A stretch of 32,000 bases of DNA from Candidatus Electronema halotolerans (GCA_942493095.1 OW818675.1:180001-212000), one strand, 5' to 3'. Counted from the first letter of the stretch, positions 2,847 to 24,055 are shown. Program-made: numbers and translations. Notes: generated from the letters alone by a model not told the origin.

Positions 2847-4439
2847 ATGCAGATGACAACGGGCGATCAATCGCCGGTCATTAAGGCGGGCGGCAATGTT
2901 TCGGTAAGCTACGGCTTGGATGAGGAGCGTGTCAAAGCCATGCTGGAGCAGCAGCAAGAGGAGCTGTTCAGGAAGCTGCGGGAGTCCGGCTTTGCGGCGG
3001 ATGACGGCGAACGCCGCCTGCTGGAGCAGCAGTTGCAGGCGGTTTCGGCGAAACTGGCTGACATCGAGCGGAGTTACAACGAAGAACTGGCCCGGCGCAA
3101 GGCGGCAGACAAAGTGCTTGCCCAATTGCGCGGCCAGCTTCCTGAAGCCCAGATTGAGCAGGCGCAGGCCAGTCTGCGGCAGGGCGACACAGCGGCGGCC
3201 CGGCAGGTTTTCCATGCAGTGGCTGACAAAGCAGGCGCGGCGGTCGCGCTGGCCGCTTTCCAGCTTGGACAGATGGCTGAAGGGGATTTGGAATATACCG
3301 AGGCCATGCGGCAGTATAAAAAGGCGGCTGCGCTGGAGGAGGACAATCCTGAGTATCTGCTTGCCGCTGGGAAAATGGCCCGCAAATTGGCGCAGTACAG
3401 GCAGGCGCAGGAATGGCTGGAGCATCTGCTGGAGATCAGGGAGGCGGAAGGGGAGAGCGCGGAGCTTGGCAGCGTTCTGCATGAGCTGGCGTTGCTGCAC
3501 AGGAATCAGGGAAAATATGAGGATGCTGAACCGCTGCATCTGCAGGCGGTTACGGTCAAAGAGAAATTTCTTGGCAAAGAGCATCCTGATGTGGCCGAGG
3601 CGTTGAATGATTTGGCTGTGTTGTACCGTCGTGAAGGGAAATATAAGGAAGCGGAGCCGCTGTATTTACGTGCGCTGGCGGTGAAGGAGAAGGTGTTCGG
3701 TGAGGATCATCCGAGCGTGGCGCAGACGTTGAATGATCTGGCGTTGTTTTATAGAAATCAAGACTGTTTTGCTGATGTTGAGTCTCTGTATCGTCGTGCT
3801 TTTGAAATTAGAGAGAAATACCTTGGAAAAGATCATTTTGATGTTGCAGAAAGTTTAAATAACCTTGCTGTGTTATATAAAGATCATGAAAAATATTTTG
3901 AGGCCGAATCGCTGCATCTGCGCTCAATTGCTATCAAAGAAAGAGTTTTAGGGAAAGATCATCCTTCTATAGCAAACAGTTTATGCAATCTTGCTTTTTT
4001 ATACAGACAGCAAGATAGATACACAGAAGCGGAGCCGTTGTATTTACGCTCTCTTGCTATCAGAGAACAGTCCTTTGGTAAAGAGCATCCTGATGTAGCT
4101 ATAAGTTTGAATAACATTGCAGGTCTTTACCGCAAGCAAGGTAGATACGCAGAGGCTAAACCTTTGCTCCAGCGCGCTCTTGAAATTCGTGAAAACAAAC
4201 TCGGCAAATATCATCCTGACGTGTCAAAGATTTTGCGCACAATGGCTAAACTCTACCGCGACCAAGGCAGATACGCGGAAGCGGAGCCGTTGTTTCAACG
4301 CGCCCTATCCATTATGAAGGAAAAATGTCCTGCCGGGCATTCACGCATTGCCGCCTGCCAGAAGGAATATGACGAAATGAAGGAGAAGATGGCGGAGCGG
4401 GAGCAAGCCGCAATATGGCACGAGGAAGACAATGTTTAA
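2847..4439 (+). CDS. Tetratricopeptide-repeat protein (kinesin-light-chain-type 42-aa TPR units) with N-terminal coiled coil
   Basis: 530-aa ORF. About seven consecutive units of the form LxxLAxLYRxQGxYxEAEPLYxRALxIxEKxLGxxHPDVAxxLNN, giving a 126-bp DNA periodicity over roughly 3470-4320. No NTPase or enzymatic domain seen. Confidence 0.85.
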   Translation: MQMTTGDQSPVIKAGGNVSVSYGLDEERVKAMLEQQQEELFRKLRESGFAADDGERRLLEQQLQAVSAKLADIERSYNEELARRKAADKVLAQLRGQLPEAQIEQAQASLRQGDTAAARQVFHAVADKAGAAVALAAFQLGQMAEGDLEYTEAMRQYKKAAALEEDNPEYLLAAGKMARKLAQYRQAQEWLEHLLEIREAEGESAELGSVLHELALLHRNQGKYEDAEPLHLQAVTVKEKFLGKEHPDVAEALNDLAVLYRREGKYKEAEPLYLRALAVKEKVFGEDHPSVAQTLNDLALFYRNQDCFADVESLYRRAFEIREKYLGKDHFDVAESLNNLAVLYKDHEKYFEAESLHLRSIAIKERVLGKDHPSIANSLCNLAFLYRQQDRYTEAEPLYLRSLAIREQSFGKEHPDVAISLNNIAGLYRKQGRYAEAKPLLQRALEIRENKLGKYHPDVSKILRTMAKLYRDQGRYAEAEPLFQRALSIMKEKCPAGHSRIAACQKEYDEMKEKMAEREQAAIWHEEDNV

Positions 4440-14088: not shown

Positions 14089-15075
14089 TCAAGCAAGCAG
14101 TTGGCTGCGGGTGAAGACCGCATGAAGCGGGCAGCCGACTGCGGCCAAGGCTTCAGCCCCGCCTTCTTCGCGGTCAACCACGGTTGCGGCCAAAGCCACC
14201 TTGAAGCCCGCCTGCTCCACCCGCTCAATCACTTTGATCAACGTGCCGCCGGTGGTGACCACATCCTCCAGCAGGACCACCGCGCAGCCGGGCTGAAGGT
14301 TGTTCTGGCCCTCCAGACAGTTGCCTGTGCCGTGCCCCTTGGCCTCCTTGCGGACAATGAAAGCCGGAATCGGGCTGCCTGCCAGATGGCTGACAATCGA
14401 GACTGCTGTCACCAAGGGGTCTGCGCCAAGCGTCATGCCGCCCACGCCGCCGACCGGCTGCGATGCCTGCCGGATCAGCTCAAAGAGCAGCCTGCCGCAA
14501 AGATAGCCGCCTTCGGCATCCAAGGTGGTCTGCTTGCCGTCAATATAGAAATCAGAGGTTTTGCCGGAACTGAGGGTGAAGGTGCCGGTGCGGCAGGATT
14601 TTGCCAGCAGCAGTTCCTTGAGCCGCTGCCGTTCGTCAGCCATGCCGCCATTGACGACAATCCGCTGCTTGGGTGGCAGGAGCTGCAGCTCGGCAGCGCG
14701 GGCCACGTTCTGGAAAATATCCGGCAGCAGGGCGGCAGCCTCGGAAACCGGCACCCAGCGCCGTTCCCGGTCAGTCTCCCACACAGCCGTTTCACCGCAG
14801 ACTGTGGCTAAATAAAAGGTGTAGCGGATAATTCTGCCGTTTTCCGCCGCCGCCTCTGATTCGGCCAGTTTTGCGCCAAGATTGACGCAGTAGCCTGACT
14901 CTTCCACGCATTCCCGCGCCGCCGCCTCTTTGACAGATTCCTCCGGCTCCACGCCGCCGACCGGAAAGACCCAACCGCCTTTGTTTTTGCGGGAACTGAC
15001 CAAGAGCACCAGCGGCTCCTTGCCTTGCTCGTACTGACAGACCACCGCCCCGGCCTTTTCTTTCACAGATTGCAT
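14089..15075 (-). CDS. pyrE: Nudix hydrolase - orotate phosphoribosyltransferase fusion protein
   Basis: 328 aa. The N-terminal part carries a perfect Nudix box G-x5-E-x7-REUxEExGU (GGVEPEESVKEAAARECVEESGY). The C-terminal part is OPRT-like (FTLSSGKTSDFYIDGK, PRPP loop VVLLEDVVTTGGT). Confidence 0.85.
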   Translation of the reverse strand: MQSVKEKAGAVVCQYEQGKEPLVLLVSSRKNKGGWVFPVGGVEPEESVKEAAARECVEESGYCVNLGAKLAESEAAAENGRIIRYTFYLATVCGETAVWETDRERRWVPVSEAAALLPDIFQNVARAAELQLLPPKQRIVVNGGMADERQRLKELLLAKSCRTGTFTLSSGKTSDFYIDGKQTTLDAEGGYLCGRLLFELIRQASQPVGGVGGMTLGADPLVTAVSIVSHLAGSPIPAFIVRKEAKGHGTGNCLEGQNNLQPGCAVVLLEDVVTTGGTLIKVIERVEQAGFKVALAATVVDREEGGAEALAAVGCPLHAVFTRSQLLA

Positions 15076-15385
15076 GGCTGCTCCTTGTCCTGCGCGGACT
15101 TGCTTGTCCGGCGAATTATTTTGTTCATAGCCGCCCCGCTCAATGCAATGATGCCGCTTTGAGCAGGCAAAGTGAATTCCTGTCCTGTCTTGTCGGCAAG
15201 GGCAGGGCGCATGGCATCAGGGATGGACAACGGAAACGTGCTGGAGAGTTTTGCCTGAAGCATGATTGCACCTTTTCTCCATCGTGCGTTGTTGAAGTCC
15301 GCCGCAGGGCTGGCAAACGGCTGGAATGAAGGAAGCTGCGGCAGGATGAGGCGAGAAGATCAGATCGGACAGCGGAAATCCACTA

Positions 15386-15473
15386 TGGTGCCGGAGGTCG
15401 GAATCGAACCGACATGGGCGCAAGGCCCGCTGGATTTTGAGTCCAGTGCGTCTACCAGTTTCACCACTCCGGC
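15386..15473 (-). tRNA. tRNA-Leu (anticodon CAA), class II with long variable arm, CCA encoded
   Basis: The reverse complement reads GCCGGAGTGGTGAAACTGGTAGACGCACTGGACTCAAAATCCAGCGGGCCTTGCGCCCATGTCGGTTCGATTCCGACCTCCGGCACCA. It has a 7-bp acceptor stem, anticodon loop CT-CAA-AA, a T-arm GGTTCGATTCC and a terminal CCA. Confidence 0.9.
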
Positions 15474-15555
15474 ACAAGGACACCATTCAGCTTAATCTAC
15501 CCATAATCCCCTCTGCTGTCAAGCGGATTGAAGGCACTTTCAACCCTCTTTTCGC

Positions 15556-16632
15556 CTACGCTGTCCTCACATCCAGCACATCGACCAGCCTGCCGCTGTA
15601 GCTGTTGCGGATCAACTCCCAGAGGGCGGCGTAATCATTGACCGTAATGTTCAGGCTGCTGACAGGCGAACCTGTAAAACCGGGCAGGGTGAAATCGCCG
15701 TTCTGCGTCACCAGCACTTCTGCGCCTGCCGCCCCGCCTTCCTGCATATCGAGCAATGAGAAGAGCAGCCGCTCTTCAGCCACATCTTGCAGCACCTGAA
15801 TGCGCAGCTTCGTGTCTGCGCTGACCGTGCCGCCGGTCACGCTCACATTGGGACTGGCCGCGCTGCCGGTGAGAACGCCGACTTCGGGCGGATTAGGATG
15901 GCCGAAATTCGTCAGGACCAAGGGTGTGCGCAGCCGCCTGCGGTAGGTGCCGGTGCGCAGGGTGCCGTGCTCGGTGTAGCGCATGGAGACCGACAGCGTG
16001 TATTCGTTGTTCCACGGGTCGTCTTGGGCCGGAACAGTCGGAATCAGGATGATGCTGGTGTTGGAAATCGGCCCGAACTGGCTCTGCACCACCCTGCCGC
16101 TGCGGGTGCCGCTGATCACGCATTCGCCGTTGCCCTGCTGCGGCTCAAAGCCGAGATTATCGCCGCTTATCTCAATGACATCAGCACTGACAAGCACATC
16201 GTTGAGCTGCAAGGTGGTGTCTTCGATTTGCTTGATCATGGGCAGCTTTTCGGTCATGTCTTCCCGTTCCAACTGGCCCTGCTGCTGAATCCCTTTCTCA
16301 AAGTTCGCGGTCGCCCGAATCTGCACATGCAGGCAGTCCTCAATCGGCGGCGGCTGGTCGTCTGGACTGTCCAAGCGGCCTGTGAGGGAAATGCTGAAGA
16401 TCAGGCCATCGTCCAAGGTGATGTGCTTGCCCTCAATCAAAGCCTTCTGAATTGTCTGGAGAAACGCGCTGATTGAGGACTTGGCCAAATCCTGGGTCAG
16501 GGCCGGGTTGACCTCGGCCATGCCTGCGGCGACATCGTCCGTGCCGAGGTGGTCGCTGGGAATGAAGCGCATTCTGTAGGACTGGGGCACGGTCAGGGCA
16601 TTGACTTCAGGTTTCCAATGAATTGCAGGCAT
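15556..16632 (-). CDS. HU-like (HU_HIG-type) DNA-binding domain protein with DUF4469-like Ig-fold region
   Basis: 358 aa from the internal ATG at 16632, with GGAGAA 6 nt upstream. The N-terminal approx 100 aa resemble Bacteroides-type HU-like domains (LAKSSISAFLQTIQKALIEGKHITLDDGLIFSISLTG). The middle part (IEISGDNLGF...SIILIPTVP) resembles DUF4469. The track extension to 16827 runs into the repeat array and is rejected. Confidence 0.6.
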   Translation of the reverse strand: MPAIHWKPEVNALTVPQSYRMRFIPSDHLGTDDVAAGMAEVNPALTQDLAKSSISAFLQTIQKALIEGKHITLDDGLIFSISLTGRLDSPDDQPPPIEDCLHVQIRATANFEKGIQQQGQLEREDMTEKLPMIKQIEDTTLQLNDVLVSADVIEISGDNLGFEPQQGNGECVISGTRSGRVVQSQFGPISNTSIILIPTVPAQDDPWNNEYTLSVSMRYTEHGTLRTGTYRRRLRTPLVLTNFGHPNPPEVGVLTGSAASPNVSVTGGTVSADTKLRIQVLQDVAEERLLFSLLDMQEGGAAGAEVLVTQNGDFTLPGFTGSPVSSLNITVNDYAALWELIRNSYSGRLVDVLDVRTA

Positions 16633-16780
16633 GGCGGTTCTCCGAGGCTGAGAAGGTGAGGAGTGAAAAGAACGGTGATTCCCGAAAACTACCTTAAAAA
16701 GCTGCGGCTCTGCTGTCAAGCATTTTTTTTGCCCTGCCGGACGGCTCTTGCCCTGAAGAAGGCAGGCGGCTGATCTGGTA

Positions 16781-16937
16781 AAAAGTACTGCCGTTCTTTT
16801 TCCAAAACAACGAGCGGTGTTTTTCAAAACTACGGGCGGTGTTTTTTAAAACTACGCTCGGTGTTTTCTAAAACTACGCTCGGTGTTTGCTCTGAACTAC
16901 GGGCGGTGTTTTTCAAAACTACGCTCGTTACATTTTT
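16781..16937. repeat. Array of about seven head-to-tail 20-24-bp direct repeats, consensus CAAAACTACGSKCGGTGTTTTT
   Basis: Units begin at about 16781 (degenerate), 16803, 16825, 16848, 16870, 16894 and 16914. Each has a GC core flanked by A4-5 and T4-6 tracts. The array is intergenic, between the DUF1566 gene stop and the HU-like gene start. Confidence 0.85.
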
Positions 16938-16957
16938 CCGGGTACGGGCGATGACCA

Positions 16958-16979
16958 GGACAGGCACAGGGGCCTGTCC
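16958..16979 (-). terminator. GC-rich hairpin immediately after the DUF1566 stop codon (no U-tract)
   Basis: GGACAGGC-ACAGGG-GCCTGTCC, an 8-bp perfect stem abutting the TAG at 16980-16982. No T-run follows on the minus strand, so terminator function is uncertain. Confidence 0.3.
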
Positions 16980-18230
16980 CTACCGTCCGTCGCGCACCAA
17001 CCGGACCGCACTGTTGCTGCTGCGGTCGTCGATGAAGGAAACGCCGTTGCCGAAACTGACGCTAACCGCGCCGTCCAAGTGCGAGTTAAACACATACGGC
17101 GAACCGGACCAAACAACGGATGCCTTAGTATTCGGAAAAGCCTGTTGATTGATCGTCGGTTCTTCCGACCCATCGTTACACCAACCGCTCTCTTTGTTCA
17201 CCCCCTTGCTGCAATACACCAAGGTTTTCAGTTCATCAATGGTCGGCATCCGCCAGTCAGTATGGTCTGCGTATTCAACATTCTTGAAATGCTTCACCGC
17301 CTCATTCCATGTGTAATACTTCAGCTCGCCCTTTTCGCAGTTCACGCCGGACAAACCTTCTGAGCAGCGTTTCCATATCAAACCGGTTTTCGTGTCAGTG
17401 ACTGTGCCATCGCCATGATAAATATATTGCCCGATTGCTCTGTCTTGCTGTGGCATTTTCTCAGCATTAGGCAGGGGCTGTAGCTTTGGAACTGTCTGCC
17501 GGGACACTGATCCGCCGCGCACCAACCGGACCGCGTTGCCGTCGCTGCGATTGCCGCGAGCGTCGAGACCGGAATAGCCGTGGCCGAAATTGACGAGCCA
17601 CGCATAGGCCGTGCTGTTCGCATCCGGCGACCCGGACCAGTACCACTCCCAAGTATTCGGAAAAGCCTGCTGGTTGATGGTTGGACGTTCCGACTCATCG
17701 TTGCATTCGCCGTCATCTTTGTCTTTCACTCCCTTGCTGCAATGCACCAAGGTTTTCAGTTCATCAATGGTGGGCAGCCGCCAATCAGCATAGCCTGCGT
17801 ATTCAACATTCTTGAAACGCTGCACCGCATCGTCCCATTTATAACTTACCACCTTACCATCTTCGCAGTTATCACCGGATAAACCATCTGAGCATCGTTT
17901 CCACATCAATCCGGTTTTGGTGTCGGTGACTGTACCATCGCCATGATCAATATATTGCCCGATTGTTGTGACTTTTGGTTCTTCGCTGCTGTCAGCAGGC
18001 ATCGATTCCTGCTCCGGCTGGACAATGACAGCAGGAGGTTTTGATGAGGCGGAATTCTTTCCACCGCTATGATGTGCGCCGAACATATACAGTCCCACGC
18101 CTGCTGCCGAACAAAACAAACCGGCAAAAATGAAAAGCAGCAGTTTCGATCTTGGAGGCTGGGGAGGAACCTGCATCTCCTGTTTGCGTTTTTCCTTCGC
18201 ATCTCTGCCATTCTTGGTAAGGATAATCAT
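16980..18230 (-). CDS. Single-pass membrane protein with two tandem DUF1566 (Lcl C-terminal, C-type-lectin-like) ectodomains
   Basis: 416 aa. Basic cytoplasmic tail, TM helix LLLFIFAGLFCSAAGVGLYMF, then a Ser/Pro linker. Two copies of DGTVTDTKTGLxWKRCSxGLSG...W..AV..FKNVEYAG..DWRxPTIDELKTLV...INQQAFPNT...WSGSP...AVRLVR. ATGA overlap with the caspase stop, and AGGAGG lies inside the caspase 3' end. Confidence 0.85.
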   Translation of the reverse strand: MIILTKNGRDAKEKRKQEMQVPPQPPRSKLLLFIFAGLFCSAAGVGLYMFGAHHSGGKNSASSKPPAVIVQPEQESMPADSSEEPKVTTIGQYIDHGDGTVTDTKTGLMWKRCSDGLSGDNCEDGKVVSYKWDDAVQRFKNVEYAGYADWRLPTIDELKTLVHCSKGVKDKDDGECNDESERPTINQQAFPNTWEWYWSGSPDANSTAYAWLVNFGHGYSGLDARGNRSDGNAVRLVRGGSVSRQTVPKLQPLPNAEKMPQQDRAIGQYIYHGDGTVTDTKTGLIWKRCSEGLSGVNCEKGELKYYTWNEAVKHFKNVEYADHTDWRMPTIDELKTLVYCSKGVNKESGWCNDGSEEPTINQQAFPNTKASVVWSGSPYVFNSHLDGAVSVSFGNGVSFIDDRSSNSAVRLVRDGR

Positions 18231-18943
18231 CCTGCCCCTCCTATCATTGATGTCTCCCAGTTCATCGGCACCTGCGCGCCTTCAGCCTGGACTTTCTCAT
18301 GGACGTATTCGTACAGCTCATTCACCGAGATAAGGTCGTCCTCATCTCTGTCCGCTTCGCCGCTGCGGATGCCCTCCAGCAGATGCTTGGTGAACAGGCC
18401 GTTCGAGTCCCCTTCCTTCTCCACCGCTGTCTGAAACGCAGTCGAGGCGGTCATGATGAAGGTGCCCTGCCCGCCGGACATGAGCTGAAGCTGGTCATCC
18501 ACCCCGCCTTTGACAAACTCCGCCCCTGCCGCGCCGCTGTAGCAGCAGTCAAGAATGAGAATCCTCTTCCGTGTGTCGGAAAGATCAAAATACGTTTTGA
18601 TGACTGCCGCAGGAATAGAGGTGGCCTCAAGAGACGAAAAGACCGTGTTGCTGGCAGCAAGACAGAGATGCCCCAAGCGGTTCAGCTTGCCGTGCCCGGA
18701 GTAATAGACCAGCACCAAGTCATCTTGGGCTGCGGCAGAGAGAATGCTGTTCAGCTTGGGCAGGATTTCGTAGCTGGGCCTGTTCTTGAAGACAACAACC
18801 TCGGCGAACAGCCCAAAGTCCGGCGAGACCAGCAGCTCGTGGAGCGCGTCAACGTCGTTCTCCGGGCAGCGCAGTTCATTCAAGCCCGGCTCTTCCGGGA
18901 ACTTGCTGGCAGCTATGAGGATGGCGTAGCGTTTTCCGGCCAT
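18227..18943 (-). CDS. Caspase-fold cysteine peptidase (peptidase C14 / metacaspase-like), cytoplasmic
   Basis: 238 aa. RYAILIAASKF start. Catalytic His context LVYYSGHGKL and catalytic Cys context ILILDCCYSGAAG. No signal peptide. Confidence 0.88.
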   Translation of the reverse strand: MAGKRYAILIAASKFPEEPGLNELRCPENDVDALHELLVSPDFGLFAEVVVFKNRPSYEILPKLNSILSAAAQDDLVLVYYSGHGKLNRLGHLCLAASNTVFSSLEATSIPAAVIKTYFDLSDTRKRILILDCCYSGAAGAEFVKGGVDDQLQLMSGGQGTFIMTASTAFQTAVEKEGDSNGLFTKHLLEGIRSGEADRDEDDLISVNELYEYVHEKVQAEGAQVPMNWETSMIGGAG

Positions 18944-19133
18944 TTCGTTACGGTAGGGGCGTAGGGGCGAAAGATTTTTCGCCCTTTGTTGAGCGCGTCA
19001 ACGTCGTTCTCCGGGCAGCGCAGCTCGGTCAAGCCCGGCTCTTCCGGGAACTTGCTGGCAGCTATGAGGATGGCGTAGCGTTTTCCGGCCATTTCGTTAC
19101 GGTAGGGGCGTAGGGGCGAAAGATTTTTCGCCC
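18842..19133. repeat. 143-bp direct duplication (18842-18984 and 18991-19133, 6-bp spacer, 140/143 identical)
   Basis: Base-by-base comparison at offset 149 bp. The only mismatches are 18875/19024, 18878/19027 and 18879/19028. The unit is the first 102 nt of the caspase CDS plus 41 nt of leader including a hairpin. Confidence 0.95.
18913..19092 (-). pseudogene. Duplicated caspase 5' fragment forming a 59-codon upstream ORF
   Basis: The ATG at 19092 opens MAGKRYAILIAASKFPEEPGLTELRCPENDVDAL (34 codons; one N-to-T change relative to the real gene). It then reads out of frame across the leader copy and the true caspase ATG (18943) to a TAG at 18913-18915. Confidence 0.6.
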
Positions 19134-19137
19134 CTAC
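19110..19137 (-). promoter_or_regulatory. Perfect 12-bp stem hairpin overlapping the EACC1 stop codon
   Basis: GTAGGGGCGAAA-GATT-TTTCGCCCCTAC contains the TAG at 19134-19136. No U-run follows. A shorter 8-bp version (GGGCGAAA/TTTCGCCC, 18965-18984) sits in the other repeat copy just upstream of the real caspase ATG. Confidence 0.5.
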
Positions 19138-19496
19138 CGTTCAATGCAAAGCTGCTGCACCTTCTGAAGCGTTTGCTCAATCTGAGCCGCACTGAAATGC
19201 TCGGCCTTGATCTTCAGCTTGTTGCCGTCCGCCCTCTCAATCTCAAAGCGCAAAGTCGGCTTGCGCTCAACGTAGGATTTCAACACTTGCAGCAAGGCTA
19301 CCACTGTGCCGGAACCCAGCGCAGCAAGCAGTATATCGCCAATGACACCGCCTCTGCTGCCAAGTCCGCCCGCTGTTTCAACCTGCCTTGCCGTCAGATC
19401 AGTTTCCTGACTGATGTCAAGCCGCAGCCTGCCTGTCAGCTCGGCAATGTCCTCAGCAGACAGGCTGCTGTCGTAAAGGGAAAGTGTCGCGTCCAT
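19134..19496 (-). CDS. EACC1-like small protein (effector-associated constant component 1)
   Basis: 120 aa from the internal ATG at 19496, with AGGAGG upstream. Layout: acidic N-terminal segment, Gly-rich hydrophobic helix GGVIGDILLAALGSGTVVALLQVL, basic junction, then RFEIERADGNKLKIKAEHFSAAQIEQTLQKV. This is the pattern I recall for EACC1 proteins (..LGSG....L......R....V..ER.DG.K..I.G.S.EE...L). Confidence 0.72.
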   Translation of the reverse strand: MDATLSLYDSSLSAEDIAELTGRLRLDISQETDLTARQVETAGGLGSRGGVIGDILLAALGSGTVVALLQVLKSYVERKPTLRFEIERADGNKLKIKAEHFSAAQIEQTLQKVQQLCIER

Positions 19497-19735
19497 GAGA
19501 ACCGCCTCCTTGAAAAAAGTCCTATTGCTTGGCGCAGAGCTGCAAAATACCATCATGCCTGCGGAGATAACAAGGAGTTTTTTCCTGAGAACGCTGCCCT
19601 GCCGATCTTCTGCCGCAATCCGCCTCCTCAGCCTTCCTGTGTACAACAGGCGGAAGAACGTGCTATACTCTATTATGCTTGCAGTGCATCCGCCCATCTC
19701 TTGCTGATCAAAAGAACAACCGCTGGAGTTTCACC

Positions 19736-21412
19736 ATGCTGACAGCAACACAGTTGTACCAGAACCGATTCACCCTTTTTCAACCTTTCCTGCACAGCAT
19801 CCGCAACCGCTTCTTCCGGGGCCAGCATATTTCCCTGCGCACGGCAGCAGTGCTCGGCTTTGGCGCAGTGCTGTTCATTGCCCTCTATTTTGTCAGCTTG
19901 CGGGTGATCGGCTATTTCCACAGCCAGAGCGAGCTGGGCATCATCCTCAGCCTGAAGATCTTTCAGATGGCCTGGATGATCATGTTCGCCATGCTGATTT
20001 TCTCGTGCATGGTCTCGGCAGTCTCTTCGCTCTACCTGTCCTCGGACAACGAAATCCTCTGCACCGCCCCAGTCCGGGAGGAGCAGCTGTTCCAGATGCG
20101 CTTCATCACCTCCTTCCTCTACACCTCGTGGATGATGCTCATCTTTTCCCTGCCGATCTTCGGGGCCTACGGCACAATCTTCAAGAGCGGCTGGGCGTAT
20201 CATGCGCTCATGGCCTTGTCCGTTCTCAGCACGGCCCTGACTGCCAGCGGCATCGGTTTGGGCGCGACCATTCTTTTAGTCCGGCTCTTTCCAGCCAAGC
20301 AGACCAAAGATATTACCGTCTATCTCTCCCTGCTCTTCGGCATTCTGCTGTATTTAGTCATCCGCCTGCTCAAGCCGGAAGACTTGGCAGACCCGGAAAA
20401 GTTCCCGGATTTTGTTGATTATCTCTCCAGCTTGCAGGCGCCCGGCTCGGCCCTGCTGCCGCCGTCCTGGGCCAATCAGCTGCTTGGCGGCTACTTGCAG
20501 GATCAGAGCATTGACTGGCTGACTGTCGGCCTGCTGCTGCTCACCCCACTGATTATGTATTGGGCCGGAGAATGGCTGATGGCCCGGTTCTTTTATGACG
20601 GCTTCAGCAAGGCGCAAGAATCCTTTGGCGGCCATCTGACCTTTGGCGGCAGCGCATATCATCCCTCGCCCCTGCGCCGCATCTTCCACAAAGAAGCCAC
20701 TCTCTTTCTCCGCGATTCAGTCGAATGGTCGCAGCTCTTTCTCATTGGCGCGATAATAGTAATTCATATCTACAACTTAAAGTTGCTGCCCATTGAACGA
20801 GCACCTATACCGACTGAATTCATGACCAATTTAATCGCCTTTGGCAACCTCGGTGTAGCAGGATTTATTGCCACCTCCTTGGCCGCCCGCTTTGTCTATC
20901 CCTGCATCGGCGCAGAAGGCCCGGCCTTTGCCGCTGTCCGCTCTTCACCTCTGCCGCTGCCCAAGTATTTGTTGTGCAAATATCTGTTCTACTGCATTCC
21001 TTTTACCGGCATCACCTTGTTCCTGATCATCGCTTCCAATGCCATGCTGCGAATCAGCGGGCCAATGTGGTGGGTTTCCATCGGAGTCAGTTTGGTAATC
21101 ACGTGGAGCGCGGTGGGACTGGCCCTCGGCTTCGGGGCGATGTATGCGGACTTCAAGATTGAAAGCAGGACAGCGGTGCAAGGCAGTTTCGGCATGATGC
21201 TCTTCATGTTTGTCTGCCTATCAATGGAGCTGGCTATGCTGATCATCGGCTTCTGGGGCAATTTCCGCCTGCTCCGCTTCTGGCTGCGCGGCCATGCCCT
21301 TGATCCGCTCGGCCTGCTGCTTTCAGTCGGAGCCTTGGCCCTGATCGTCCTGATCGGTGCGGCAGCTTCGTTCTTCTGTCTGCAAAAGGGATTGAAAACG
21401 CTGGAGGAGTAA
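19736..21412 (+). CDS. Polytopic membrane protein (12 or more TM), possibly putative-ABC-exporter-type permease
   Basis: 558 aa from the ATG at 19736, with GGAG upstream. Hydrophobic helices throughout. The family assignment is only an impression. No ATPase gene is adjacent. Confidence 0.7.
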   Translation: MLTATQLYQNRFTLFQPFLHSIRNRFFRGQHISLRTAAVLGFGAVLFIALYFVSLRVIGYFHSQSELGIILSLKIFQMAWMIMFAMLIFSCMVSAVSSLYLSSDNEILCTAPVREEQLFQMRFITSFLYTSWMMLIFSLPIFGAYGTIFKSGWAYHALMALSVLSTALTASGIGLGATILLVRLFPAKQTKDITVYLSLLFGILLYLVIRLLKPEDLADPEKFPDFVDYLSSLQAPGSALLPPSWANQLLGGYLQDQSIDWLTVGLLLLTPLIMYWAGEWLMARFFYDGFSKAQESFGGHLTFGGSAYHPSPLRRIFHKEATLFLRDSVEWSQLFLIGAIIVIHIYNLKLLPIERAPIPTEFMTNLIAFGNLGVAGFIATSLAARFVYPCIGAEGPAFAAVRSSPLPLPKYLLCKYLFYCIPFTGITLFLIIASNAMLRISGPMWWVSIGVSLVITWSAVGLALGFGAMYADFKIESRTAVQGSFGMMLFMFVCLSMELAMLIIGFWGNFRLLRFWLRGHALDPLGLLLSVGALALIVLIGAAASFFCLQKGLKTLEE

Positions 21413-21426
21413 GCCAGAAAAAGCAA

Positions 21427-21448
21427 GCCCGGAGCAATTGCTCCGGGC
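21427..21448. terminator. Palindromic hairpin between the convergent permease and glmS genes
   Basis: GCCCGGAGCAATTGCTCCGGGC is a perfect palindrome. On the minus strand it is followed by TTGCTTTTTCTGG, so it best fits a glmS terminator and may act in both directions. Confidence 0.6.
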
Positions 21449-21453
21449 GGCCT

Positions 21454-23292
<1,839 letters not shown>

Positions 23293-23323
23293 AATAATTC
23301 CTTTACAGAGCCTGTAGGAAATA

Positions 23324-24055
23324 TCACGACATGTTGCCGACATTCATCGTCGTGATATTTTGGATAAGAAAATTATTTGACTTTAATCTCTTTGGCAGGG
23401 CATTCGCAGCGAGGAAGGCCATAATCAACAAAAAGGCCACGAGATTCACTTTCAGCACATTGACCAGATAATTTTTCTTTGATTTGGATAAGCCTGCTAT
23501 GATCAACTCCTCCCATAAGGTGGTCAGGCCGATGCTGATGACCAGAGCAGTCAAGACATACAAGTACTTTAATATCCAATATGCCGTCAAAGAGCTGTCT
23601 ATTTGTGACTGCGCAGCCCCAAAGAGAATGAAGGTCATAAAATACAAGATTACGATTGTAGCTGCTACACCTTGCTTGTTCAATGCTGAATGATTTTCAA
23701 TCTGAAGAAAATCGATCAATCTTCCAGCAGGACGAAGTGAGATTAAATAAATAACAGGCAGGAAGAATAACATTGAGGTTGGCACCGAAGCACCCAGAAT
23801 AAGGACAAATCCTATTAATGAACTGACGATGTTGGCGACCACGACAAAGAGGATGGATTTAAGAGCAGGAATTGACCTTTCAAGCCATGCAAAACCAATT
23901 GCTTTCAGGAAGACAATACCAAAAAGCGAATAAAAAGGTGCTCCGAAAAGCATGATCAAAGGGATGACCGGTTCGCAGGCAAATGCGGACTTAGGGAATA
24001 AAAGAGCTGCGGCGAAGATAAAAGCTGCCATATCAGCATATCGTGTTTTTTTCAT
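23324..24055 (-). CDS. Hypothetical polytopic membrane protein (about 6-7 TM), AT-rich gene
   Basis: 243-aa ORF with ATG at 24055. Continuous hydrophobic helices and no recognisable family. Visibly lower GC than the flanking glmS. Confidence 0.55.
   Translation of the reverse strand: MKKTRYADMAAFIFAAALLFPKSAFACEPVIPLIMLFGAPFYSLFGIVFLKAIGFAWLERSIPALKSILFVVVANIVSSLIGFVLILGASVPTSMLFFLPVIYLISLRPAGRLIDFLQIENHSALNKQGVAATIVILYFMTFILFGAAQSQIDSSLTAYWILKYLYVLTALVISIGLTTLWEELIIAGLSKSKKNYLVNVLKVNLVAFLLIMAFLAANALPKRLKSNNFLIQNITTMNVGNMS

What the first reader, a model, noticed from the sequence alone, without database searches (positions are those of the whole stretch)
16980..19496. EACC1 - caspase - membrane-anchored double DUF1566 operon with no NTPase: candidate undescribed conflict / programmed-death module
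Seen in the sequence: three co-directional minus-strand genes.
(1) A 120-aa protein whose layout matches EACC1: acidic N-terminal segment, Gly-rich hydrophobic helix GDILLAALGSGTVVALLQVL, then RFEIERADGNKLKIKAEHFSAAQIEQ.
(2) A 238-aa cytoplasmic caspase-fold peptidase with an intact His/Cys dyad (YYSGHG, LDCCYSG).
(3) A 416-aa single-pass membrane protein with two C-type-lectin-like DUF1566 domains predicted to face the periplasm.
The caspase stop and the DUF1566 start overlap in ATGA, and an AGGAGG lies inside the caspase 3' end, so these two genes appear translationally coupled.

Established knowledge: EACC1 was defined as a small invariant partner of caspase, trypsin and other effectors in NTP-dependent conflict systems (Kaur, Burroughs, Iyer and Aravind, eLife 2020). 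Those systems normally also encode a STAND or other NTPase with TPR/WD40 sensor repeats.

Inference: no NTPase is present in this operon or its flanks, which are the HU-like gene on one side and a divergent permease on the other. The lectin-like ectodomain protein occupies the position where a sensor would be expected. That suggests an envelope-sensing input coupled to an intracellular caspase executioner. I do not know of this three-gene combination being described, and I cannot verify that here.
Basis: partly seen in the sequence, partly recalled or inferred. Interest (0 to 1): 0.86.

Follow-up and report, generated by a model that had tools for sequence, protein, structure and literature searches.

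The report
Frameshift-split EACC1–caspase–DUF1566 suicide module
This is a cable-bacterium copy of an already described two-gene cell-suicide/defence module (a small pore-forming protein, EACC1, plus the caspase that activates it), in which the caspase and its lectin-like sensor, normally one protein, have been separated by a frameshift; it is a family member, not a new kind of system.

Summary
The three ORFs and their domains are real: EACC1, an EACC1-associated-type caspase, and a single-pass membrane protein with two DUF1566/Lcl_C domains. No NTPase lies in the 32 kb window.

The "three-gene, NTPase-less, undescribed" reading does not hold.
- Kaur et al. 2020 define the EACC1 system as two genes: EACC1 plus a caspase with about 50 alternative C-terminal modules. 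STAND NTPases are only one option.
- In relatives the caspase and DUF1566 form one polypeptide. Thirty such EACC1-type fusions were found, 14 with an internal TM helix, and two are in this same genome.
- The window's DUF1566 ORF starts with MIILTKNGRDAKEKRKQEM, which is an internal segment of the fused proteins. An indel at 18252-18259 split the gene, and the ATGA overlap is a by-product.
A 99%-identical independent scaffold lacks it.

Likely mechanism, inferred from Evans et al. 2025: the sensor activates the caspase, the caspase cleaves EACC1, and a membrane pore forms. Here the sensor is uncoupled, so this copy may be impaired.

The DUF1566 domains carry DGR-type variable-region footprints, but no template repeat or reverse transcriptase is in the window.

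Verdict: new member of a known kind, modest interest.

The parts
19134..19496 (-). EACC1 gene (120 aa). By homology it is a latent pore-forming effector. It has an N-terminal alpha+beta domain, a flexible loop at aa 41-50, and a Gly/Ser-rich hydrophobic helix (VIGDILLAALGSGTVVALL). C-terminal strands and a helix follow.
   Evidence: PF19953 at E=1.4e-8, above the cut-off. There are 65 homologues, mostly from cable bacteria. Alignment A4. AF2 model with pLDDT 74. Hydropathy.
19505..19511 (-). Shine-Dalgarno AAGGAGG for EACC1, 8 nt upstream of the ATG at 19496.
   Evidence: Sequence. It is conserved in L057 and L058.
19113..19134 (-). GC-rich hairpin GGGGCGAAAAATCTTTCGCCCC (9-bp stem, 4-nt loop). 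It starts at the last base of the EACC1 stop codon and has no U-tract. It may be an attenuator or mRNA-stability element between the effector and protease genes (inference).
   Evidence: 0 matches expected by chance. It is conserved after the EACC1 stop in the independent scaffolds L057 and L058. It is absent from L001 and L002, where EACC1 and the caspase abut or overlap.
18988..19133 (-). Upstream unit of a 149-nt tandem duplication. It holds the hairpin, the leader and the first 33 codons of the caspase gene in the 'LTEL' variant.
   Evidence: 2.0 copies, 97% identity. It is absent from the 99%-identical scaffold L057, which has a single copy. The LTEL variant matches paralogue P0276 from the same genome.
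18913..19092 (-). 59-aa ORF created by the duplication. It has the caspase N-terminus MAGKRYAILIAASKFPEEPGLTELRCPENDVDALN followed by out-of-frame read-through. It ends 30 nt inside the real caspase ORF.
18839..18984 (-). Downstream unit of the tandem duplication. It holds the second hairpin (18964-18985), the leader and the true caspase 5' end.
18227..18943 (-). Caspase-fold peptidase ORF (238 aa) of the EACC1-associated type, with the His84 / Cys133-Cys134 dyad. It has no SD of its own. Its last 9 residues (ETSMIGGAG) are out-of-frame relative to homologues.
   Evidence: PF00656 at E=8e-21. NF047832 at 172.5 bits against a cut-off of 140. Alignment A2. The closest PDB relatives are the MALT1 paracaspase structures.
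18252..18259 (-). Frameshift site (TGGGAGAC) that splits the ancestral caspase-sensor gene. Relative to L001 (TGG GAC ATC AAT) the window has an extra GA. Equally, it could be a 1-nt loss from TGG GGA GAC.
   Evidence: DNA comparison. Fused homologues read ...PMKWGLQTKGSMIIAKSGR... across this point. In the AF2 model of fused homologue P0002 the site lies in the first strand of a terminal beta-hairpin, E227-234 and E238-241.
18237..18242 (-). AGGAGG 6 nt upstream of the DUF1566-ORF ATG. Together with the ATGA stop/start overlap (18227-18230) it would permit re-initiation.
   Evidence: Homologues have AAGGGCAGG or AAGGGGAAG at this position.
16980..18230 (-). ORF of 416 aa. It holds the remnant of the caspase C-terminal strand and basic tail (MIILTKNGRDAKEKRKQEM), one TM helix and two DUF1566/Lcl_C (C-type-lectin-like) domains. 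It is the detached sensor half of the caspase gene.
   Evidence: PF07603 at E=6.6e-61 in 2 stretches. Homology of the N-terminus and TM to internal parts of the fused protein P0210. Topology.
18081..18143 (-). TM helix (aa 30-50, LLLFIFAGLFCSAAGVGLYMF). It is homologous to the internal TM of fused P0210 (KLLLLILAAVSCVAAGTGWYF).
17517..17936 (-). DUF1566 domain 1. It includes a DGR-type variable-region-like segment at 17535-17624, followed by the conserved GCGGTCCGGTTGGTGCGCG.
16989..17408 (-). DUF1566 domain 2. It includes a variable-region-like segment at 17010-17096 and the same conserved 19-mer.

Best explanation
The locus is one of several copies of the EACC1-caspase two-gene suicide/defence module in Candidatus Electronema halotolerans, a multicellular cable bacterium.

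Normal layout, shown in relatives:
- Gene 1 encodes EACC1.
- Gene 2 encodes a single protein. It has an N-terminal EACC1-type caspase, usually a ~75-aa helical linker, and with or without a TM helix, followed by one or more C-terminal DUF1566 (C-type-lectin-like) ligand-binding domains.

Mechanism, inferred from experiments on a Ktedonobacter homologue:
1. Ligand binding by the sensor activates the caspase, probably by induced proximity.
2. The caspase cuts EACC1 between its autoinhibitory N-domain and its hydrophobic C-terminal part.
3. The C-terminal fragment oligomerises into a membrane pore and kills the cell.
4. In a filament, this would sacrifice the infected or damaged cell.

What differs in this copy (shown in the sequence):
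- Gene 2 has lost the helical linker.
- Gene 2 is broken by an indel at 18252-18259. The caspase (238 aa) and the TM-2xDUF1566 sensor (416 aa, periplasm-facing) are now separate ORFs that overlap in ATGA.
- A 149-nt tandem duplication of the hairpin plus the caspase 5' end sits between EACC1 and the caspase.

Inference: the sensor is covalently uncoupled from the protease. This copy is most likely impaired or decaying. A non-covalent split version cannot be excluded.
For: Family identity:
- Searches give the EACC1, EACC1-associated caspase and Lcl_C assignments.

One ancestral gene:
- L055 has EACC1 followed by an intact 530-aa caspase-linker-TM-DUF1566 protein.
- P0210 is 92.5% identical in the caspase and has a homologous TM. 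P0262 is an intact linker-less caspase-TM-DUF1566 protein.
- DNA comparison places the indel.
- The AF2 model of P0002 has pLDDT 85. It shows that the DUF1566 ORF's first residues correspond to the last strand of a beta-hairpin at the end of the caspase fold.

Abundance:
- 62 of the 120 best DUF1566 relatives carry a caspase domain.
- 30 of those are EACC1-type, and 14 of the 30 have an internal TM.
- Intact paralogues occur in the same genome. P0223 (GCAAIG_12085) is adjacent by locus tag to EACC1 P0129 (GCAAIG_12090), and P0276 is a second.

No NTPase in any inspected operon:
-.

Definition and mechanism from the literature:
- PMC7159879 section 33.
- bioRxiv 10.1101/2025.11.14.688446.

Other support:
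- The duplication is absent from L057.
- Other genes in the window match their Pfam models end to end. Local assembly quality is therefore good and the frameshift is probably real.
Against: - The genome is a Nanopore R9.4.1 assembly with only one round of Illumina polishing. The single indel next to a G-run, and possibly the duplication, could be assembly errors. The gene would then be intact.
- Both half-ORFs are full length. The downstream half has a perfect AGGAGG and an ATGA overlap. Standalone ~235-aa caspases followed by a separate C-type-lectin gene occur in an Illumina-assembled lineage on 4 contigs (L003-L005). A working split form is therefore plausible.
- Cleavage of this EACC1 by this caspase is untested.
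- This EACC1 lacks the 'KGD' Asp seen in 20 of 27 homologues. That Asp is the likely equivalent of the mapped Asp49 site.
- The ligand of the DUF1566 domains is unknown.
Confidence: 0.75

Rival explanations
1. The split is adaptive. This would be a working three-component system. The free caspase, the membrane sensor and EACC1 would act together. The sensor's cytoplasmic tail (MIILTKNG...) would dock onto the caspase by beta-strand complementation. Translational coupling through ATGA would fix the stoichiometry.
For: - AGGAGG lies 6 nt before the ATG, with the ATGA overlap. The window has an extra codon here that creates the perfect SD, compared with homologues.
- The tail corresponds to the last strand of a terminal hairpin of the caspase fold.
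- An independent lineage has a separate 235-aa caspase followed by a CLec gene.
Against: - The ATG and TGA are by-products of the ancestral ATG ATT read one frame off.
- All 30 EACC1-type caspase-DUF1566 relatives recovered are fused.
- Other cable-bacterial copies are broken at different places. L001 has a 10-nt deletion after the catalytic Cys, L002 has at least 3 frameshifts and L006 has one. That pattern looks like decay, not design.
- No second genome with this exact split was found.
Confidence: 0.2
2. Assembly artefact. The true genome carries an intact fused caspase-TM-2xDUF1566 gene and no duplication. The locus would then be an ordinary two-gene EACC1 system.
For: - The assembly is R9.4.1 Nanopore with a single Illumina Racon round, from a metagenome.
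- The indel is next to a GGG run.
- L057, a 99%-identical Illumina scaffold, lacks the duplication.
- Paralogues in the same genome could confuse assembly or polishing.
Against: - The other roughly 20 genes scanned in the window match their Pfam models end to end, with no other frameshift.
- The two duplicated units differ by 4 substitutions, 3 of them clustered as a block, rather than by random errors.
- Relative to L001 the difference is a 2-nt insertion, which is not a typical homopolymer error.
Confidence: 0.15
3. The DUF1566 protein is an unrelated envelope adhesin or surface protein that merely lies downstream. Only EACC1 and the caspase would form the system.
For: Many DUF1566 proteins are stand-alone surface proteins or are fused to LRR, RCC1, SH3 or Ig-like modules.
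Against: - Its first 19 residues and its TM are homologous to internal segments of fused caspase-DUF1566 proteins.
- Adjacency or fusion with an EACC1-type caspase recurs in L001, L002, L055 and 30 database proteins.
Confidence: 0.03

Closest known systems
EACC1-caspase two-gene conflict system ('System 4' of Kaur, Burroughs, Iyer & Aravind, eLife 2020; PMC7159879)
   Same: - A 5' EACC1 gene with the conserved small-residue TM helix.
- A 3' caspase of the EACC1-associated type.
- A variable sensor or effector module C-terminal to the caspase, here with a TM helix and an extracellular ligand-binding domain. This parallels the TM + PBP examples.
- The host has a multicellular habit.
   Different: - The C-terminal module is DUF1566/Lcl_C, in two copies. 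It is not named in the held text of the paper.
- In this copy the module is detached from the caspase by a frameshift.
- A hairpin and a 149-nt duplication separate EACC1 from the caspase. In most relatives the two genes overlap.
Ktedonobacter racemifer EACC1-KrAvs12 (Evans et al., bioRxiv 10.1101/2025.11.14.688446)
   Same: [quoted passage not shown]
- The expected logic of sensor, then protease, then EACC1 cleavage, then membrane pore.
- The AF2 model of the window's EACC1 shows the same alpha+beta N-domain, flexible loop, hydrophobic helix and C-terminal strands.
   Different: - The sensor there is a cytoplasmic STAND ATPase (Avs12) that recognises phage tail connectors. Here it is an ATPase-free, periplasm-facing C-type-lectin-like module.
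- The mapped Asp49-type site ('KGD') is deleted in the window's EACC1.
DGR-diversified C-type-lectin targets: DUF1566 'category d / CLec2' of Wu et al. 2018 (PMC5758913), and EACC1-caspase-FGE-sulfatase systems next to a DGR reverse transcriptase (L006)
   Same: - Both DUF1566 domains have a conserved scaffold, then a ~30-codon hypervariable stretch that is 86% NNY codons, then the conserved end GCGGTCCGGTTGGTGCGCG.
- That 19-mer is identical to the VR/TR end of a bona fide DGR in a gammaproteobacterium (L031 TR with L030 and L038 VRs).
- A sister cable-bacterial locus couples EACC1-caspase-CLec to HRDC plus a DGR-type RT.
   Different: - No template repeat and no reverse transcriptase occur in the 32 kb window.
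- The two variable segments differ by indels, so they cannot share one template.
- The rest of the genome could not be searched.
Bacterial gasdermin-protease and other protease-activated pore systems
   Same: A neighbouring protease removes an autoinhibitory part of a small protein, which then forms membrane pores.
   Different: There is no sequence or fold relationship. EACC1 is about 120 aa with a single hydrophobic helix.

Membership tests
EACC1 two-gene system (Kaur 2020 System 4) | The 5' gene encodes an EACC1 domain (PF19953) | tested here: met
   E=1.4e-8, 35.1 bits against a cut-off of 23.6, covering model positions 6-105 of 107.
EACC1 two-gene system (Kaur 2020 System 4) | [quoted passage not shown] | tested here: met
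   VIGDILLAALGSGTVVALL has mean hydropathy 2.09. G49, G53 and A59 are invariant in 27 homologues. The AF2 model shows strands 3-8, 35-38, 83-88 and 93-96 and helices 14-31, 62-78 and 103-118, at pLDDT 74.
EACC1 two-gene system (Kaur 2020 System 4) | The next co-directional gene begins with a caspase-superfamily peptidase of the EACC1-associated type with an intact dyad | tested here: met
   NF047832 at 172.5 bits against a cut-off of 140. H84, C133 and C134 are invariant. The gene is 190 nt downstream of EACC1 on the same strand.
EACC1 two-gene system (Kaur 2020 System 4) | [quoted passage not shown] | tested here: not met
   In the window the module (TM + 2xDUF1566) is a separate ORF that overlaps by 4 nt. 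Homology shows it was fused and was split by an indel at 18252-18259. The feature is met in paralogues and orthologues.
EACC1 two-gene system (Kaur 2020 System 4) | The caspase cleaves EACC1 and the C-terminal fragment forms a membrane pore (Evans et al. 2025) | not testable with these tools
   This needs biochemistry. One point to note: the loop Asp ('KGD') present in 20 of 27 homologues is missing here.
NTP-dependent conflict systems with a STAND/AAA+ NTPase and repeat sensor | An NTPase (STAND, MoxR, GTPase) is encoded in or next to the operon | tested here: not met
   No NTPase domain occurs in the three proteins, the flanks or any large ORF of the window. None occurs in the operons of L001-L006 or L051-L056. 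A MoxR 2 kb upstream in L055 belongs to a Bat-type MoxR/DUF58/VWA cluster.
Peptidase C14 (caspase fold) | Caspase/hemoglobinase fold with a His-Cys catalytic dyad | tested here: met
   PF00656 at E=8e-21. A profile hits MALT1 at E=5e-9. The model of homologue P0002 matches MALT1 structures at Foldseek E=1e-11.
Lcl_C / DUF1566 (C-type-lectin-like) | Match to PF07603 over the whole domain | tested here: met
   E=6.6e-61 in two stretches, the best at aa 99-238 covering model positions 1-117 of 117. There is no solved structure by sequence.
DGR (diversity-generating retroelement) target gene | A variable region at the 3' end of a CLec domain whose differences from a cognate template repeat fall at template adenines | tested here: inconclusive
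   The footprint is VR-like: 51 of 59 codons are NNY against 174 of 357 elsewhere, p=3e-8. This is partly an amino-acid-composition effect. The 19-mer end is shared with a true DGR. No template repeat was found in the window.
DGR (diversity-generating retroelement) target gene | A DGR-type reverse transcriptase (IGxxxSQ motif), with or without Avd/HRDC, in the neighbourhood or genome | tested here: not met
   There is none in the 32 kb window. The sister locus L006 has HRDC plus an RT with the motif IGNLISQ.

The most novel reading that the evidence does not exclude
Cable bacteria have expanded a repertoire of caspase-DUF1566 receptors. Some are cytoplasmic and coupled to EACC1, some are membrane-spanning with periplasmic sensors, and some are fully secreted. 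Their lectin-like binding sites carry DGR-type hypervariable regions. Under this reading they form a diversified, partly periplasm-monitoring immune or self-surveillance system. It would trigger pore-mediated suicide of single cells in the filament, and it would be the genetic basis of the empty 'ghost cells' seen in cable-bacterium filaments. The split copy in this window would then be a functional two-subunit variant, or a snapshot of the rapid birth and death of such receptors.
Probability: 0.15. Interest if true: 0.7.

Novelty: new member of a known kind. Interest (0 to 1): 0.3.

Why it matters
For defence-system biology this adds little that is new in kind. It shows the EACC1-caspase module using an ATPase-free, periplasm-facing lectin-like sensor, and it shows how fast such loci are rearranged: frameshift, linker loss and a tandem duplication in one copy.

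The more useful point is organismal. Cable bacteria are multicellular filaments that share a periplasm. Their caspase genes are explicitly described as being of unknown function, in a paper that asks whether deliberate cell death exists in them (PMC12163305). Tying many of those caspases to a pore-forming effector that has been validated experimentally in a homologous system gives a concrete, testable route to programmed single-cell death in these filaments.

Tried and rejected
1. Look-up of the source genome around the locus. The caspase, P0001 and P0129 are not in the gene-position index. The paralogous loci and any DGR in this genome could therefore not be read.
2. Template-repeat search. 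BLAST of both variable-region-like segments against the window found only each other. A genome-collection scan for the 19-mer did not include the source genome.
3. Metagenome scan with the DUF1566 ORF, to find a same-species contig across the frameshift. None was confirmed.
4. Programmed frameshifting. The region where both frames are open holds no X XXY YYZ slippery heptamer. A +1 shift at GGA-TGA would enter the wrong frame (read). Rejected.
5. PADLOC gave only a weak generic 'caspase' hit and no system model.
6. Rfam found nothing in 15000-20000 except the tRNA. The hairpin and the 22-nt repeats are not known RNA families.
7. Terminator and promoter scans gave no more hits than shuffled sequence.
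8. The NNY codon test for a DGR footprint is significant, but it is partly circular because Asn, Asp, Tyr, His and Phe have only NNY codons. I do not count it as proof.
9. Counting NCBIfam caspase_w_EACC1 matches at E<=1e-10 did not separate the two caspase types, since 61 of 62 matched. I used BLAST identity to the window's caspase instead.
10. The 'HU-like' neighbour had no family hit.

Full report
SOURCE AND OBSERVATION

The window comes from Candidatus Electronema halotolerans, a cable bacterium of the Desulfobulbaceae. The caspase and the DUF1566 protein are 100% identical to GCAAIG_00900 and GCAAIG_00895 on a 3.2 Mb contig.

- The 120-aa ORF (19134-19496) passes Pfam's EACC1 threshold at E=1.4e-8. 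It has a good Shine-Dalgarno sequence.
- The 238-aa ORF (18227-18943) is a Peptidase_C14 domain at E=8e-21.
- That ORF also passes NCBI's curated model 'caspase, EACC1-associated type' at 172.5 bits against a cut-off of 140. His84 and Cys133/134 are invariant among homologues.
- The 416-aa ORF (16980-18230) has two Lcl_C/DUF1566 domains at E=6.6e-61.
- That ORF has one strongly hydrophobic segment, a basic N-tail and an acidic stretch after the TM helix. This fits a cytoplasmic N-terminus and periplasmic lectin-like domains.

The ATGA overlap and the AGGAGG are present. No NTPase is encoded anywhere in the 32 kb. The 'HU-like' label for the neighbour could not be confirmed.

THE CASPASE AND THE DUF1566 PROTEIN ARE ONE GENE, SPLIT

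Homologues of the caspase include proteins that run straight from the caspase into DUF1566. These are P0050, P0092 (92% identical), P0100, P0103 and P0119. In them the caspase ends ...EGAQ(V/E)PMKWGLQTKGSMIIAKSGRxAKEKRRQE... and then continues.

The window's caspase ORF stops after ...EGAQVPMNW + ETSMIGGAG. The DUF1566 ORF begins MIILTKNGRDAKEKRKQEM. That N-terminus is therefore an internal segment of the fused proteins.

At the DNA level the window reads TGG GAG ACA TCA ATG ATA GGA GGG GCA GGA TGA. Electronema sp. V4 reads TGG GAC ATC AAT GCC AAG GGC AGG ATG ATC. An indel at 18252-18259 shifts the frame. It is either an extra GA or a 1-nt loss from TGG GGA GAC. The shifted frame then meets TGA inside the ancestral ATG ATT. 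The ATGA 'coupling signal' is thus a by-product of the frameshift.

An AlphaFold2 model of the fused homologue P0002 has mean pLDDT 85. It places the break in the first strand of a beta-hairpin (E227-234, E238-241) that ends the caspase fold. The second strand (MIIA) is now the N-terminus of the sensor ORF.

The closest intact relative is P0210, 92.5% identical in the caspase. It has caspase, then a ~75-aa helical linker, then a TM helix (PPKSKLLLLILAAVSCVAAGTGWYF), then DUF1566. The window's PPRSKLLLFIFAGLFCSAAGVGLYMF is the same TM helix, so the window has also lost the linker. Linker-less fusions such as P0262 exist intact. Loss of the linker alone therefore does not imply inactivity.

HOW COMMON THE ARCHITECTURE IS, AND THE NTPase QUESTION

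Of the 120 best relatives of the DUF1566 ORF, 62 carry caspase plus DUF1566.
- By identity to the window's caspase, 30 are EACC1-type (at least 60% identical). Fourteen of these have an internal TM helix and 16 have none.
- The other 32 are a different, signal-peptide-bearing caspase family, about 22% identical. It includes the closest double-DUF1566 proteins.

Nearly all named sources are Electrothrix, Electronema or Desulfobulbus. NCBI already names one such fusion 'caspase, EACC1-associated type' (P0250).

The same genome holds intact fused paralogues.
- P0223 (GCAAIG_12085) sits next to EACC1 P0129 (GCAAIG_12090), by locus-tag order.
- P0276 (GCAAIG_12930) is a second one.

Neighbourhoods read directly:

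| Locus | Organism or source | Layout |
|---|---|---|
| L055 | Electronema sp. V4 | EACC1 + intact 530-aa caspase-linker-TM-DUF1566 |
| L051-L054 | Electrothrix communis and others | EACC1 + caspase-FGE-sulfatase, 547-589 aa |
| L056 | Electronema sp. JM | The same pair, beside a restriction-modification system and a PIN gene |
| L006 | GCA_024449855.1 | EACC1 + caspase-FGE-sulfatase; a second, frameshifted caspase / TM-FGE-sulfatase; then HRDC and a reverse transcriptase with the DGR hallmark IGNLISQ |
| L003-L005 | GCA_003704795.1 and others | EACC1 + a 235-aa caspase + a separate FGE-sulfatase protein |
| L001 | Electronema sp. V4 | EACC1 + caspase-DUF1566 broken by a 10-nt deletion just after the catalytic Cys |
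| L002 | Electrothrix gigas | At least three frameshifts |

None of these operons contains an NTPase.

This agrees with the literature. Kaur et al. define the EACC1 system as a membrane-associated two-gene system with about 50 alternative C-terminal modules. Those include TM helices with extracellular ligand-binding domains, and STAND NTPases are only one option (PMC7159879 section 33).

Between EACC1 and the caspase lies a GC-rich hairpin (GGGGCGAAAAATCTTTCGCCCC). It starts at the EACC1 stop codon. A 149-nt unit is present twice in tandem at 97% identity, at 18839-18984 and 18988-19133. The unit holds the hairpin, the leader and the first 33 caspase codons.

The upstream partial copy opens a 59-aa ORF that runs over the true caspase start. 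Its LTEL variant matches paralogue P0276, whereas the full gene has LNEL.

An independent, 99%-identical Illumina scaffold (L057) has the hairpin but only one unit. L058 also keeps the hairpin. In more distant relatives EACC1 and the caspase abut or overlap, with no hairpin.

The hairpin is therefore a conserved feature of this subclade. It may set the effector-to-protease ratio, which is an inference. The duplication is private to this assembly.

IS THE FRAMESHIFT REAL?

The genome was assembled from R9.4.1 Nanopore reads, polished with Racon and Medaka and then with one Illumina Racon round. Residual indels are therefore possible.

Against an artefact:
- The other genes scanned in the window match their Pfam models end to end.
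- The difference from L001 is 2 nt, not a homopolymer length change.
- The duplicated units differ by clustered substitutions.

I put the chance of an artefact at about 15%. I could not find a same-species contig across the site.

MECHANISM

Shown elsewhere: for a Ktedonobacter EACC1-caspase-Avs12 system, the triggered caspase cuts EACC1 at a putative Asp49. Only the C-terminal fragment is toxic, and cleaved EACC1 permeabilises liposomes (bioRxiv 10.1101/2025.11.14.688446).

Shown here: the window's EACC1 has the family's layout in an AF2 model with pLDDT 74.
- N-terminal strands and a helix.
- A low-confidence loop at aa 41-50.
- A hydrophobic helix.
- Two C-terminal strands and a helix.

Inferred, in four steps:
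1. The DUF1566 domains bind a ligand. In this copy that happens in the periplasm. In the 16 TM-less relatives it happens in the cytoplasm.
2. Binding activates the caspase.
3. The caspase cleaves EACC1.
4. A pore forms and kills the cell.

In the window the covalent link between sensor and protease is broken. This EACC1 and its two closest relatives also lack the 'KGD' Asp present in 20 of 27 homologues at the expected position. Together with the independent disruptions in L001, L002 and L006, I favour an impaired or decaying copy. A working split form remains possible. Its support is the AGGAGG, the possibility of strand complementation, and the naturally separate caspase and CLec genes of L003-L005.

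DGR LINK

Each DUF1566 domain has a conserved scaffold, then a ~30-codon divergent stretch, then an identical GCGGTCCGGTTGGTGCGCG. The scaffold is 84% identical at the DNA level between the two domains. In the divergent stretches 51 of 59 codons are NNY, against 174 of 357 elsewhere (p=3e-8). This test is partly confounded by amino-acid composition.

A scan of species-representative genomes for the 19-mer found, among others, a gammaproteobacterium with a textbook DGR.
- L031 carries an Asn-rich template (NSNNAWNVNFDNGNDNWNNRNNNN) next to an Avd-like gene.
- Three DUF1566 variable regions (L030, L038) differ from that template only at its adenines.

DUF1566 is a recognised class of DGR target (PMC5758913). 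The window's domains therefore belong to the DGR-diversifiable CLec2 type.

However, no template repeat or reverse transcriptase is in the window. The two segments differ by indels. Current diversification is unproven.

COMPARISON AND NOVELTY

By the membership test the locus is an EACC1 two-gene system. It meets every sequence-level criterion except 'variable module fused to the caspase'. That criterion fails only because of the frameshift, and it is met by paralogues and orthologues.

The locus is not an NTP-dependent STAND system. The DUF1566 sensor is not mentioned in the held text of Kaur et al. or Evans et al.. A search of the paper library for DUF1566 together with caspase gave nothing relevant. 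The sensor choice is therefore a modest descriptive addition.

I rate the locus a new member of a known kind. The organismal angle is the most interesting part. A cable-bacteria paper on 'ghost cells' states that caspase-domain genes are present but of unknown function, and asks whether deliberate cell death exists (PMC12163305). The expanded caspase-DUF1566 family linked to a pore-forming effector gives that question a concrete hypothesis.

Noticed in passing
window 16798-16927: An array of about 5.7 tandem 22-nt repeats (consensus TTTTCCAAAACTACGCGCGGTG; 0 expected by chance). It lies between the DUF1566 stop and the likely start (about 16629) of the next minus-strand gene, a 357-aa protein with no family hit. 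It may be a repeated operator or iteron-like site. It matches no Rfam family.
   Followed up: partly
window 14089-23343; L002 1703-10606: The EACC1 locus sits in a variable stretch between glmS and a NUDIX / phosphoribosyltransferase gene, next to tRNA-Leu(CAA) at 15386-15473. Electrothrix gigas has an EACC1-caspase-DUF1566 locus in a region that also holds glmS and NUDIX/PRT genes. This may be a shared hotspot.
   Followed up: no
L001 9203-11008; L002 9622-11507; L006 6001-8114: In three other cable-bacterial assemblies the caspase-lectin gene next to EACC1 is disrupted at different positions. L001 has a 10-nt deletion right after the catalytic Cys, L002 has at least 3 frameshifts and L006 has one frameshift. 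EACC1 stays intact in all three. This could be recurrent inactivation of the protease/sensor gene, or it could reflect assembly quality.
   Followed up: partly
L031 1040-1190 and 1816-2172; L030 100-250; L038 1580-2165: A textbook DGR in Gammaproteobacteria bacterium CCP3-SC15AN1. It has an Asn-rich template repeat beside an Avd-like gene. Three DUF1566 variable regions differ from the template only at its adenines. Two of them are the tandem domains of one 794-aa surface protein.
   Followed up: partly
P0190-P0193, P0208, L014 6191-7720: Cable bacteria also encode a second family. Signal-peptide-bearing (secreted or periplasmic) caspase-like proteins are fused to one or two DUF1566 domains. 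The same DUF1566 type is also fused to LRR, RCC1 and SH3 modules (P0211, P0194, P0196). The domain looks like a shared, shuffled sensor cassette in this clade.
   Followed up: partly
window 19134-19496 (aa 46-54): The window's EACC1 and its two closest relatives (P0121, P0122) have a 2-residue deletion. It removes the Asp of the 'KGD' motif, which is present in 20 of 27 homologues just before the hydrophobic helix. This is the position expected for the protease cleavage site.
   Followed up: partly
P0050, P0092, P0100, P0103, P0223, P0276: Sixteen of the 30 EACC1-type caspase-DUF1566 fusions have no TM helix. Their DUF1566 domain should therefore be cytoplasmic, yet the four cysteines per domain that suggest disulfides are conserved in them too.
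   Followed up: no
window 2847-4439: A 530-aa protein made almost entirely of TPR_12/TPR_10 repeats, a type often attached to STAND NTPases, but with no NTPase domain. It lies 13 kb from the EACC1 locus and no link to it is evident.
   Followed up: no
L055 4909-13097: In Electronema sp. V4 the intact EACC1 + caspase-DUF1566 pair lies inside what looks like a MoxR / DUF58 / BatA-VWA cluster. The MoxR gene is upstream and the DUF58 and VWA genes are downstream. This could be an insertion into that operon or a coincidence.
   Followed up: no
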